Below the pieces are notes generated by a model. It was not told the origin of the DNA. It did no database searches and was given only the letters and a program-made list of their open reading frames with translations. From an uncultured Candidatus Saccharibacteria bacterium (GTDB lineage Bacteria; Patescibacteriota; Dojkabacteria; J137), in the NCBI GenBank assembly GCA_965230975.1, contig OZ246402.1, positions 573,009 through 637,008 of the forward strand: a DNA stretch of 64,000 nucleotides, read 5' to 3'. The translations under genes and the position numbers were made by a program. Shown piece after piece: positions 1 through 1,251 of this stretch (within the stretch, counting starts at the first letter, position 1; the number at the start of each line of letters is the position of its first letter).

Positions 1-110
1 TAAAGCATTTTGCATTTAAGAATATTAGCATGAGTATTCTATTTTTTGTAAAGGGAGATTTATTGCAAAATTGTTTTGGTTAAACTATAATTACCATACC
101 TCAATAATAT

Positions 111-336
111 GCGGGTATAGTATATCGGTTATTTAGAGTGTGCTTTTAAGCACTTAGAACAAGGCAATTACCTTGCTCGCAATAACCGAAGCTAGAACAT
201 TTAAAAAGTGCGGGTATAGTATATCGGTTATTATTTTAAAGTAGCTTTAGCTACGATAAGATTAAGTCAATTTCTGATAGAAAAAATAACCGTTAGCAGA
301 ACATTTAAAAAACGCGGGTATAGTATATCGGTTATT
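111..336 (+). repeat. Tandem array of three copies of the first 23 nt of tRNA-Gly (GCGGGTATAGTATATCGGTTATT at 111-133, 210-232, 314-336). Copies 2 and 3 are preceded by a conserved block aataaccg-N5-agaacatttaaaaa-NN. Units are separated by variable 47-nt and 52-nt segments, each carrying a 5-bp stem / TTTA tetraloop hairpin.
   Basis: Read directly: exact 23-mer at 99-nt and 104-nt spacing; the third copy is the 5' end of the intact tRNA; aataaccg is the reverse complement of cggttatt in the repeat. Confidence 0.85.
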
Positions 337-385
337 ATGACAGTTTTCCAAACTGTAGAGGGGGGTTCGATTCCCCCTACCCGCT
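314..385 (+). tRNA. tRNA-Gly, anticodon UCC
   Basis: Cloverleaf read by hand: 7-bp acceptor stem GCGGGTA/TACCCGC; anticodon stem ACAGT/ACTGT with loop TTTCCAA (anticodon TCC); T arm GGGGG-TTCGATT-CCCCC; 4-nt variable loop; discriminator T; no encoded CCA. The D stem is weak (G-U plus one mismatch). Confidence 0.75.
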
Positions 386-495
386 TTTTCTTTATTTCTT
401 CAATTCTGGCAATCATTTAGTTTATACTACTAACAGTCTGCTCGATCAGATTCTAAAAATGTAGTAAAATTTTCACAATATTTAGTAGTATTAAA

Positions 496-1251
496 ATGAA
501 TAAGTATAAATTGTTGGTTCTTGATGTAGATGGAACCCTAGTAAAAGACACTTCTCAAGTGATTTCACCTAGAGTTATTGAAGCAATAAAATCACTAACA
601 GGTAAAATAACTACTATTCTTTGCACTGGTAGATCACTTGAGGATCTAGATCAGATAATACCTTTATTAAATTTAGAGAATTCGTATAATGTAATTGAGA
701 GTGGGTCTTCGGTTCTAAGTCCTGGGTTAAATATTGAATTTGTACGCTCAGTTGATCTAATAGATGCAAAAAGAATGTTTAATCTTCAGGGTTCACTTAT
801 AAGTAATTTTAGTATTTGTGTAGATGGAAACTGGAGATATAGCCTGGACAATATAGGAGACAATAATCATATTACTACTGTGACCTTTTATTTTGACGAT
901 CCTTCTAAAAGTGACGAAGTAATTTCTTATTTTAATGAGTTCAAAGATAAATATCATATGGCAATAGGAACTCAGTGGGGAAATCCTGAGGGGAGACAAT
1001 TAATGATTACACATAAAGATGCATCTAAGGAGAAGTCTTTGGAGTATGTTCAAAATAAATTGGGGGTAACAATTGAAGAAACCGTATGTATTGGAGATAT
1101 GCCAAATGACTTGCCTATGTTCAGAAGATCTGGATTGAAGATTTGTATGGGAAATGGTGATCAAAAACTTAAAGATGCCTCAGACTTAATAGTAAAAAGT
1201 ATAGATGAAGATGGTGTGGCAGATGCAATAGAAAACTATATTTTGAAATAG
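496..1251 (+). CDS. HAD-superfamily hydrolase, Cof-like phosphatase
   Basis: N-terminal LVLDVDGTLV motif (HAD motif I); C-terminal GDMPNDLPMF (motif IV); 251 aa. Confidence 0.75.
   Translation: MNKYKLLVLDVDGTLVKDTSQVISPRVIEAIKSLTGKITTILCTGRSLEDLDQIIPLLNLENSYNVIESGSSVLSPGLNIEFVRSVDLIDAKRMFNLQGSLISNFSICVDGNWRYSLDNIGDNNHITTVTFYFDDPSKSDEVISYFNEFKDKYHMAIGTQWGNPEGRQLMITHKDASKEKSLEYVQNKLGVTIEETVCIGDMPNDLPMFRRSGLKICMGNGDQKLKDASDLIVKSIDEDGVADAIENYILK

What the first reader, a model, noticed from the sequence alone, without database searches (positions are those of the whole stretch)
111..385. Tandem array of tRNA-Gly 5' halves, each followed by a different structured hairpin, directly upstream of the intact tRNA-Gly(UCC)
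The first 23 nt of the tRNA (5' acceptor strand plus D arm) occur three times at about 100-nt periodicity. Copies 2 and 3 carry a conserved 5' extension (aataaccg-N5-agaacatttaaaaa). That extension is the reverse complement of the end of the preceding copy (cggttatt), so each variable segment is bracketed by an 8-bp inverted repeat. The two variable segments (47 nt and 52 nt) differ in sequence but both begin with a 5-bp stem / TTTA tetraloop hairpin with compensatory stem changes (GTGCT..AGCAC versus GTAGC..GCTAC). Compensatory change of this kind is the signature of a selected RNA structure, not a decaying duplication. In the third unit the same position is occupied by the real anticodon arm. 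This layout is not the usual integrase signature, which duplicates the 3' end of the tRNA, and it is not CRISPR-like. It could be a tRNA-processing-dependent small-RNA array, split or permuted tRNA-like units, or scars of repeated site-specific recombination at the D-loop.
Basis: seen in the sequence. Interest (0 to 1): 0.7.

Follow-up and report, generated by a model that had tools for sequence, protein, structure and literature searches.

The report
Decoy tRNA-half modules before tRNA-Gly
The leader of a glycine tRNA gene in a tiny-genome (Patescibacteria) bacterium carries two copies of a roughly 100-base module, a copy of the tRNA's first 23 bases followed by a folded junction that pairs back onto that copy; the same module sits before the same tRNA in at least four other genomes, so it is a real and apparently undescribed element whose function is still unknown.

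Summary
It is reproduced base for base in two independent assemblies.

- **What is there.** Only 314-385 is a tRNA, tRNA-Gly(UCC). Upstream lie two tandem modules. Each has a decoy (tRNA nt 1-23), a 47-52 nt hairpin segment, an "anti-D" octamer AATAACCG complementary to decoy nt 16-23, and an A-rich linker of about 21 nt.
- **Fold.** Module 1 folds into a three-way junction.
- **Relatives.** A single copy of the same module precedes the same tRNA in four other Patescibacteria genomes. Those genomes have different neighbouring genes and 31-45% GC. 11 of 24 base pairs show double compensatory changes. A covariance model built without one of these loci still found it (E about 1e-9).
- **Empty sites.** Close relatives have the plain tRNA behind the same promoter.
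- **What it is not.** I found no integrase, no transposase, no Rfam family, no extra copies elsewhere and no phage or plasmid match.
- **Transcription.** One sigma-70-like promoter lies upstream of decoy 1.

Best reading, at about 0.45 confidence: a tRNA-derived structured 5' leader module, co-transcribed and removed by RNase P. Its copy number changes by recombination between the 23-bp repeats. The role in tRNA maturation is inferred, not shown.

The parts
63..91 (+). Sigma-70-like promoter: TTGCAA, 17-nt spacer, TATAAT. It is the only good + strand promoter match upstream of the array. The predicted transcription start is near 98.
   Evidence: 10 of 12 matches. Nothing comparable lies before copies 2 and 3. 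Homologous TATAAT boxes sit in the same place before decoy 1 in L001, L007 and L020, and before the plain tRNA in L019, L022, L002 and L004.
111..133 (+). Decoy 1: an exact copy of tRNA nt 1-23 (5' acceptor strand, D-stem 5' strand, D-loop and part of the D-stem 3' strand).
   Evidence: Not called as a tRNA.
126..188 (+). Module 1 three-way junction. P1 is 126-133 with 181-188 (decoy nt 16-23 with the anti-D octamer). A 2x2 internal loop TA/GC follows. P1b is 136-138 with 176-178. P2 hairpin is 140-153. The A-rich joiner is 154-159. P3 hairpin is 160-175.
   Evidence: RNAfold MFE -20.3 kcal/mol, z -3.84, 0 of 200 shuffles as good. Same topology in L001 and L007; L020 keeps P1, P1b and P2 but not P3. 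Pair counts. The covariance model R1 scores it at 50.9 bits; it is one of the four sequences the model was built from.
189..209 (+). Linker 1. It is A-rich and predicted to be largely unpaired (RNAfold pairs 191-194 with decoy nt 8-11). It contains AGAACATTTAAAAA at 194-207.
210..232 (+). Decoy 2: the second exact copy of tRNA nt 1-23. Identity to the tRNA extends to nt 25.
225..292 (+). Module 2, a divergent variant. P1 is 225-232 with 285-292. P2 hairpin is 241-254, sitting on an extra A/U helix. A weak 4-bp hairpin lies near 266-278. There is no TA/GC loop and no P1b.
   Evidence: RNAfold -15.8 kcal/mol, z -3.76. The model R1 built from type-1 modules does not find it.
293..313 (+). Linker 2, with the same AGAACATTTAAAAA at 298-311. 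It is the immediate 5' leader of the tRNA.
314..385 (+). The functional tRNA-Gly(UCC). CCA is not encoded, the D-stem is weak and A/U-rich, and a T-run follows.

Best explanation
Region 98-385 is most likely one transcription unit: a leader of about 216 nt followed by tRNA-Gly(UCC).

**The module.** The leader is built from two tandem copies of a tRNA-derived module. Each copy contains, in order:
- a decoy copy of tRNA nt 1-23;
- a 47-52 nt segment with one or two hairpins;
- an octamer, AAUAACCG ("anti-D"), complementary to nt 16-23;
- an A-rich single-stranded linker.

**Fold.** In the RNA the anti-D pairs back onto its own upstream decoy and closes a compact three-way junction. That pairing leaves the identical D-region of the real tRNA free. 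RNase P then cuts at G314 and releases the tRNA, while the structured leader is left over.

**Origin and copy number.** The module probably arose from a tandem, partial duplication of the tRNA gene. It has been inherited with that tRNA in several Patescibacteria lineages. Copy number (0, 1 or 2) changes by recombination between the 23-bp direct repeats.

**Shown.** The anatomy, the family, the fold predictions, the compensatory changes, the single promoter match and the empty sites.

**Inferred.** Co-transcription, RNase P release, and any role. My best guess for the role is that the module modulates or buffers maturation. The decoys carry the same 5' acceptor strand as the tRNA and so compete for its single 3' strand. 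The alternating D / anti-D segments allow mutually exclusive helices, as in an attenuator.
For: 1. **A family, not a one-off.** The same module in single copy precedes the same tRNA in four other genomes:
   - L001;
   - L007 and L005;
   - L020 and L021, the same sequence from two sequencing runs.

   The neighbouring genes differ: HAD hydrolases in the window, an M16 peptidase in L001 and L020, DUF1801 in L005 and L007.
2. **Independent detection.** Model R1 was built without L020 and finds it at 52.6 bits, E about 1e-9.
3. **Same fold from separate sequences.** Each sequence folded alone gives the same junction, with z-scores of -2.3 to -4.7.
4. **Pair conservation.** 96-98% of pair cells are standard pairs. 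11-14 of 24 pairs changed on both sides. 0 of 500 shuffles reach this, and slid controls give 35-53% paired. RNAalifold re-predicts the same structure.
5. **Decoy conservation.** Across the six decoys I count one difference from the cognate tRNA in about 121 positions (nt 1 in L007). The inner segment has diverged beyond MAFFT alignability.
6. **One promoter.** One promoter match lies before decoy 1. None lies before copies 2 and 3, and there are no terminators.
7. **Filled and empty sites.** Empty sites share the promoter. L019 (TTGATATAAT plus plain tRNA) compares with L007 (the same box plus decoy plus module plus tRNA). L022 (empty) compares with L020 and L001.
8. **Competition is plausible.**
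   - For the window and L001, RNAfold prefers the first decoy's GCGGGU as partner of the tRNA 3' strand; for L007 it prefers a shifted, partial version of that pairing.
   - That preference over the enforced cloverleaf is 6-9 kcal/mol.
   - Deleting the decoy restores the native acceptor stem in the window and L001 (probability at least 0.95), but not in L007.
Against: - **It is dispensable.** Close relatives lack it: L019, L022, and the plain loci L002, L004 and L006.
- **The structure is not uniformly kept.** P3 is lost in L020. Module 2 of the window does not fit the model.
- **Small, related sample.** Only five genomes were available, and the alignments were fitted to the structure.
- **RNA versus DNA is unresolved.** Almost all pairs are Watson-Crick. 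The few G-U pairs come from the least certain rows, so a DNA-level palindrome is not excluded.
- **Compensatory-looking changes have another source.** Replication template switching in hairpins can produce them without selection. This is my own knowledge, not tested here.
- **Fold energies are incomplete.** They ignore tRNA tertiary structure and co-transcriptional kinetics.
- **No direct data.** There is no transcript, 5'-end or processing evidence.
Confidence: 0.45

Rival explanations
1. A neutral relic. An upstream tandem copy of a tRNA-Gly gene became a pseudogene. Its first 23 nt are kept identical by gene conversion or unequal crossing-over with the live gene. The hairpins are remnants of the anticodon and T arms, kept palindromic by template-switch mutation. 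Under this reading the RNA does nothing.
For: - Unit length (99-104 nt) is about one tRNA plus a spacer.
- P2 and P3 sit where the anticodon and T arms would be.
- Weak residual similarity exists beyond nt 23: in L007 AAGGATTTTTCCTTTAGCCGC against GAGGGTTCGATTCCCTCTACCCGC. Alignment p is about 0.02 for L001 and L007.
- The distribution is sporadic and P3 is lost in L020.
Against: - Similarity beyond nt 23 is not significant for W1, W2, L020 or L005 (p 0.10-0.85).
- The decoys score nothing against the tRNA model at E up to 10.
- A decaying pseudogene should not keep 96% pairing through 11 or more double changes. It also should not evolve a new 3' strand (AATAACCG) complementary to its own D-region in every lineage.
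- The module has persisted across distant genomes despite flanking direct repeats that make deletion easy.
Confidence: 0.25
2. A leader-derived small RNA array. RNase P and other nucleases release one or two stable structured RNAs of about 80-100 nt (decoy plus junction). These act in trans, for example as sponges or decoys for something that recognises the 5' part of tRNA-Gly.
For: - The junctions are compact and stable.
- Decoy nt 1-15 are conserved although they lie outside the junction.
- There is precedent for functional spacers of tRNA precursors, from my own knowledge of the 3'ETS-leuZ sponge in E. coli.
Against: - No terminator or promoter delimits the units.
- Loop sequences are not conserved, so no obvious trans-recognition surface exists apart from the decoy itself.
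- There are no expression data.
Confidence: 0.15
3. Scars or miniature derivatives of a site-specific integrating element. The element's attachment site would be tRNA nt 1-23. Each integration would bring a replacement 5' part plus the linker and leave the displaced 5' part plus the variable segment behind.
For: - The boundary of identity at nt 23 is sharp.
- Filled and empty sites occur in close relatives.
- The window holds two tandem, different inserts that share the same right-hand end, AATAACCG-N5-AGAACATTTAAAAA.
Against: - No integrase, recombinase or transposase lies within several kb at any of five loci.
- The 23-mer is absent from 2.9 million viral contigs.
- The modules have no match in phage or plasmid collections; only the tRNA body matches.
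- No further copies were found in 64 kb plus all fetched loci.
- Module sequences track the host lineage: L005 resembles L007, and L001 resembles L020. That fits vertical descent.
- Integrases normally duplicate the 3' part of a tRNA, which is established knowledge (Williams 2002).
Confidence: 0.1
4. Split or permuted tRNA units, or an intron in the D-loop that is removed at the RNA level.
For: Removing exactly one or two periods would regenerate the tRNA. Patescibacteria are rich in tRNA introns (PMC13011429).
Against: - An intact, uninterrupted tRNA is already present at 314-385.
- No 3' halves lie downstream.
- There are no group I or group II intron or ribozyme hits at E up to 10.
- At 99-104 nt, the units are far too small for a group I intron.
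- ARAGORN in intron mode finds nothing more.
Confidence: 0.03

Closest known systems
Partial tRNA-gene duplications at attL/attR of integrated genomic islands and prophages
   Same: A direct repeat of part of a tRNA gene lies next to the intact gene. The identity boundary is sharp. Filled and empty sites occur among relatives.
   Different: Islands duplicate the 3' part, span kilobases and carry an integrase. Here the 5' 23 nt are duplicated, the insert is 76-81 nt, no recombinase is present, and the insert is a conserved folded module.
Functional spacers of tRNA precursors and RNase P-released tRNA-like RNAs (3'ETS-leuZ sponge in E. coli, plant mitochondrial t-elements, mascRNA). These examples come from my own knowledge.
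   Same: A structured non-tRNA segment is co-transcribed with a tRNA or tRNA-like element and is separated from it by tRNA-processing enzymes.
   Different: Those elements do not contain an exact copy of the 5' part of the neighbouring tRNA, nor a strand complementary to its D-region. Processing has not been shown here.
Attenuator-type leaders and the synthetic RNase P riboswitch (PMC7897497)
   Same: Alternating complementary segments (D1, anti-D1, D2, anti-D2, D3) allow mutually exclusive helices. Leader structure could decide whether the pre-tRNA is a good RNase P substrate.
   Different: No ligand, protein or translation signal is known to flip the structure. The natural element matches no riboswitch family. 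The RNase P riboswitch is engineered and not natural.
Group I introns in Patescibacteria tRNA genes (Nakagawa et al. 2026, PMC13011429)
   Same: The same phylum, and unusual extra sequence associated with tRNA genes that standard annotation ignores.
   Different: Those are self-splicing introns of 200 nt or more in the anticodon loop. Here the tRNA is uninterrupted, the extra sequence lies upstream, it is 99-104 nt per unit, and it has no intron signature.

Membership tests
tRNA (Rfam RF00005 / ARAGORN) | A cloverleaf scoring above the family threshold | tested here: not met
   Only 314-385 scores (62.7 bits). Decoy units give no tRNA hit even at E up to 10 in the window and in L007.
Integrase-mediated att-site duplication (genomic island or prophage in a tRNA gene) | A tyrosine or serine recombinase gene beside one repeat, with a kb-scale element between the repeats | tested here: not met
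   The repeats are 99-104 nt apart. The neighbours are HAD hydrolases, MsrB, an M16 peptidase, a glycosyltransferase, DUF1801 and GNAT, with no recombinase.
Integrase-mediated att-site duplication (genomic island or prophage in a tRNA gene) | The duplicated segment is the 3' part of the tRNA | tested here: not met
   The duplicated segment is nt 1-23, the 5' end.
CRISPR array | Short, nearly identical repeats of 24-48 nt with unique spacers of similar length, usually many units and cas genes | tested here: not met
   There are three copies. The repeat block is 52-54 nt and is part of a tRNA. No array was detected by the tandem or direct repeat tools beyond these copies. No cas-like domain appeared among the nine window ORFs scanned.
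Group I / group II intron in a tRNA gene | An interrupted tRNA plus a catalytic intron core recognisable by covariance models | tested here: not met
   The tRNA is uninterrupted. There is no intron hit at E up to 10, and the units are 99-104 nt.
Small self-cleaving ribozymes (hammerhead, twister, pistol, hatchet, HDV-like) | Conserved catalytic core motifs, detectable with the Rfam models | tested here: not met
   No such family appears in the permissive scans of window 1-500 or L007 6980-7200. The junction strands are not conserved in sequence.
Split / permuted tRNA (archaeal type) | Separate 5' and 3' halves with complementary leader sequences, or a bulge-helix-bulge (BHB) motif | tested here: not met
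   Three 5' parts but only one 3' part. No T-arm or 3' acceptor copies lie downstream.
MITE / small non-autonomous transposon | Many similar copies dispersed in the genome, with terminal inverted repeats and a short target duplication | tested here: inconclusive
   The covariance model finds no other copy in the 64-kb window or in the roughly 110 kb of related loci searched. The full 1.19-Mb genome could not be searched.
Structured cis-acting 5' leader of a tRNA transcript (the class I file it under) | Lies between the promoter and the mature 5' end on the same strand | tested here: met
   The promoter match is at 63-91. None lies closer to the tRNA and there is no terminator. Promoter boxes sit in the same place in relatives.
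Structured cis-acting 5' leader of a tRNA transcript (the class I file it under) | A conserved secondary structure supported by compensatory change in homologues | tested here: met
   Caveat: only five genomes, and the alignment was fitted to the structure.
Structured cis-acting 5' leader of a tRNA transcript (the class I file it under) | It is transcribed, and it affects processing or expression of the downstream RNA | not testable with these tools
   No transcriptome or biochemical data are available. Only thermodynamic predictions exist.

The most novel reading that the evidence does not exclude
The modules are a natural RNA switch or buffer that gates maturation of tRNA-Gly(UCC). It would be a chain of alternating D and anti-D segments plus decoy acceptor strands. 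The fold of that chain would decide whether the tRNA's own 5' strand and D-arm, or a decoy, pairs with the single 3' acceptor strand. That choice would decide whether RNase P makes a functional tRNA. Copy number would be tunable by recombination at the 23-bp repeats. This would be the first natural self-mimicking tRNA leader.
Probability: 0.15. Interest if true: 0.75.

Novelty: new variant of a known kind. Interest (0 to 1): 0.5.

Why it matters
Control of tRNA abundance at the level of precursor folding and RNase P access has so far been demonstrated mainly with engineered constructs. A conserved natural leader that copies the tRNA's own 5' part, and carries a strand complementary to its D-region, would be a compact and testable system for that question. 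It occurs in organisms whose tiny genomes have few protein regulators.

Even if it proves neutral, it documents an unusual way for tRNA genes to evolve: 5'-partial tandem duplication with concerted evolution. It also flags sequence that standard annotation of Patescibacteria genomes silently skips.

Tried and rejected
- **Rfam scans.** I ran the gathering threshold on the whole window, then permissive scans on window 1-500 and L007 6980-7200. Only the tRNA scored.
- **Tandem Repeats Finder.** Nothing; the units are too divergent.
- **Metagenome scan.** I searched for the 5' half plus AATAAC. It returned one chance hit, a plain tRNA-Gly(GCC) in L008.
- **Viral contigs.** The 23-mer and the composite pattern are both absent.
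- **Phage and plasmid BLAST.** Only the tRNA body matches other tRNA-Gly genes.
- **Synteny through the downstream HAD hydrolase.** This failed. The 85-86% identical relatives have that gene next to L21/L27 with no tRNA.
- **ARAGORN with introns allowed.** No extra genes were found.
- **Testing the decoys as decayed tRNAs.** I aligned the part beyond nt 23 to the cognate tRNA. p ranged from 0.02 to 0.85, which is suggestive only for L001 and L007.
- **Small ORFs across the array.** Only 21-49 aa frames were found, none of them convincing as coding.
- **An internal promoter in the AGAACATTTAAAAA box.** The consensus scan does not support it, and the spacing to +1 is inconsistent between genomes (and sequence inspection).
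- **Hammerhead-like core.** CUGAUGAG occurs in some of the tRNAs themselves by coincidence, but not in the window's tRNA or in the modules.
- **Literature.** One of the three searches failed on a syntax error. The other two returned no description of such a leader.

Full report

Yes. The 23-mer GCGGGTATAGTATATCGGTTATT occurs at 111, 210 and 314 and nowhere else in the 64-kb window, even with three mismatches. None is expected by chance.

ARAGORN and Rfam agree that only 314-385 is a tRNA, tRNA-Gly(UCC).

Copies 2 and 3 are preceded by AATAACCG-N5-AGAACATTTAAAAA-NN. The whole 54-nt block is 87% identical between the two. AATAACCG is the exact complement of CGGTTATT, which is tRNA nt 16-23. Each variable segment (47 and 52 nt) is therefore bracketed by an 8-bp inverted repeat (I2/I5/I16).

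The two TTTA hairpins are at 140-153 and 241-254.

The array is identical in two independent Logan assemblies that span it. Two shorter contigs from other runs match the parts they cover. It is therefore not an assembly artefact.

**2. Context**

The window is a 31% GC chromosomal stretch of housekeeping genes. The source contig is 1.19 Mb.

The array sits in a divergent intergenic region. A HAD-family gene lies on the minus strand upstream and the HAD hydrolase at 496-1251 lies downstream.

The exact 23-mer occurs in only seven species-representative genomes, all of them Patescibacteria (candidate phyla radiation, CPR) MAGs. They are labelled mostly Dojkabacteria, plus one Doudnabacteria and one Saccharibacteria.

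One sigma-70-like promoter (TTGCAA-17-TATAAT, 63-91) precedes decoy 1. There is none before copies 2 and 3, and there are no terminators. No plausible ORF crosses the array.

**3. Anatomy of a unit**

Unit 1 folds, on its own, into a three-way junction:
- P1 is CGGUUAUU with AAUAACCG.
- A 2x2 loop UA/GC follows.
- P1b is GAG with CUC.
- P2 is GUGCU-UUUA-AGCAC.
- An A-rich joiner follows.
- P3 is CAAGG-CAAUUA-CCUUG.

The fold has z = -3.8.

Decoy nt 1-15 and the 21-nt linker are predicted to be largely unpaired; RNAfold adds only a weak 4-bp helix between decoy nt 8-11 and the start of the linker.

Unit 2 has the same P1 and a P2 with the same UUUA loop. Its inner part is otherwise different, and the model of the type-1 module does not recognise it.

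**4. Relatives**

A single copy of the same module precedes the same tRNA in four other genomes:
- L001.
- L007 and L005; L005 is cut by the contig end.
- L020 and L021, the same sequence from two sequencing runs.

The gene neighbourhoods differ.

L001 and L007 fold into the same junction as unit 1. L020 keeps P1, P1b and P2 but has lost P3.

A hand-made structural alignment of four modules gave these figures:

| Measure | Result |
|---|---|
| Paired cells | 97.7% |
| Pairs with changes on both sides | 14 of 24 |
| Shuffles reaching this | 0 of 500 |
| Paired cells in slid controls | 35-53% |

A covariance model built from those four found the fifth, L020, at 52.6 bits.

On the model-based alignment of five modules, 96.4% of cells pair and 11 pairs carry double changes. 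RNAalifold predicts the same structure by itself.

Caveats:
- Only five genomes were available.
- The alignments lean toward the structure.
- Nearly all pairs are Watson-Crick.

RNA-level selection is therefore likely but not proven.

**5. Presence and absence**

Plain tRNA genes with no decoy occur in L002, L004 and L006. They also occur in close relatives of carriers:
- L019 has a neighbouring protein 73% identical to that of L007. It has the same TTGATATAAT promoter, followed directly by the tRNA.
- L022-L024 are relatives of L001 and L020, and they are empty.

More distant relatives (L026, L027) carry a quite different, ordinary tRNA-Gly(UCC) at the syntenic place.

In filled sites the ancestral promoter and short leader stay with decoy 1. 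Formally, then, the extra DNA is the inner segment, the anti-D, the linker and a second copy of nt 1-23. It is flanked by 23-bp direct repeats.

This pattern fits either of two histories:
- ancestral presence with easy loss by recombination between the repeats;
- insertion.

Module sequences track host relatedness (L005 resembles L007, and L001 resembles L020). That favours vertical inheritance with loss.

**6. What it is not**

- **Known RNA families.** Nothing matches in Rfam, including ribozymes, introns, riboswitches and T-boxes.
- **Mobile-element context.** No integrase or transposase lies near any of the five loci.
- **Mobile-element matches.**
  - Nothing matches in viral contigs.
  - Nothing beyond the tRNA body matches in phage or plasmid collections.
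- **Other copies.** The sequence I hold contains no other copies.
- **Interrupted or split tRNA.** The tRNA is uninterrupted and there are no 3' halves, so the intron and split-tRNA readings fail.
- **Published Patescibacteria tRNA introns.** They are group I introns in the anticodon loop, which is a different thing (PMC13011429).

**7. Origin**

The unit has the length and layout of a tRNA plus a spacer. P2 and P3 sit where the anticodon and T arms would be. In L007 the end of the module (AAGGATTTTTCCTTTAGCCGC) resembles the T arm plus 3' acceptor strand.

Statistically, similarity beyond nt 23 is marginal. p is about 0.02 for L001 and L007 and is not significant for the other four. A tandem partial duplication of a tRNA-Gly gene is therefore plausible but not shown.

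**8. How it may work**

These steps follow from the data but are not demonstrated:
- Transcription probably starts near 98.
- P1 can form before the next copy is transcribed. That leaves the real tRNA's D-region unpaired with the leader.
- RNase P would cut at 314.

Secondary-structure thermodynamics add the following:
- **Competition.** In the window and L001 the first decoy's acceptor strand is the preferred partner of the tRNA 3' strand. In L007 the minimum-energy fold uses a shifted, partial version of that pairing.
- **Size of the effect.** The minimum-energy fold beats the enforced cloverleaf by 6-9 kcal/mol in all three.
- **Deletion test.** Deleting decoy 1 restores the native acceptor stem with probability of at least 0.95 in the window and L001, but not in L007.
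- **Alternative nesting.** In the two-unit leader, alternative nestings of D and anti-D helices are possible.

These models ignore tertiary structure and folding kinetics. They show only that competition is possible.

Decoy nt 1-15 lie outside the junction, yet they are essentially unchanged. I count one difference from the cognate tRNA in about 121 decoy positions across the six decoys. This argues for either function or concerted evolution.

I therefore commit, at about 0.45, to a tRNA-derived structured leader module that is co-transcribed and processed away and has a modulatory or buffering effect on maturation. The rivals, in order, are:

| Rival | Confidence |
|---|---|
| Neutral duplication relic | 0.25 |
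| Trans-acting leader RNA | 0.15 |
| Recombination scars | 0.10 |
| Intron or split tRNA | 0.03 |

**9. Novelty and score**

I found no described family or paper matching a tRNA leader that contains exact copies of the tRNA's 5' part, each closed into a junction by a strand complementary to the D-region.

It belongs to a known general kind, structured spacers of tRNA precursors, but it is a new variant. It is real and recurrent, but it is dispensable in close relatives and its function is unknown.

I score interest at 0.5.

Noticed in passing
L003 (JBDTVZ010000001.1, Dojkabacteria MAG), minus strand, about 1186-943: A tRNA nested inside another tRNA. A tRNA-Gly(CCC) gene, whose two halves have a covarying acceptor stem, is interrupted just after the anticodon by a 172-nt insert. 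The insert contains a complete tRNA-Gly(UCC) on a 9-bp extension of its acceptor stem (GTGAATACA/TGTATTCAC) and is closed by GCCTGCC/GGCAGGC. Removing the 172 nt in silico gives a clean 72-nt tRNA-Gly(CCC). ARAGORN in intron mode does not call the outer gene. The insert is too short for a group I intron. It could be a novel intron-like or split arrangement, or a disrupted gene.
   Followed up: partly
L003 459-809 (-): The ORF just downstream of the nested tRNA pair is a 23S rRNA intervening-sequence protein (PF05635, E 5e-20).
   Followed up: no
L026 3857-3928 and L027 2610-2681, compared with L001, L020 and L022: The tRNA-Gly(UCC) near the M16 peptidase gene differs between lineages. Two lineages have an ordinary form (GCGACAGTAGTTCAGTGGTAGAAC...). 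Three have the A/U-rich-D-arm form (GCGGGTATAGTATATCGGTTATT...). This suggests either tRNA gene replacement or very fast change. The A/U-rich form is 81-85% identical to some phage tRNA-Gly genes, including Listeria phage A511 and Sinorhizobium phage Phosso.
   Followed up: partly
L013-L017 (JGI and NCBI contigs): Relatives whose HAD hydrolase is 85-86% identical to the window's 496-1251 product have that gene beside rplU/rpmA, with no tRNA in the intergenic region. Gene order around the array is therefore not conserved even at that distance.
   Followed up: yes
window 385-400: The tRNA has no encoded CCA. It is followed directly by a T-run (TTTTTCTTTATTTCTT). The terminator scan found nothing here, so termination may rely on the tRNA's own acceptor and T-arm helix plus the U-run.
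   Followed up: no
L020, L021, L022, L023, L024 (Logan contigs): All five contigs end inside the tRNA-Gly gene, within nt 18-44. This suggests that the tRNA body is shared between co-occurring strains or loci in those samples and breaks the assembly graph.
   Followed up: no
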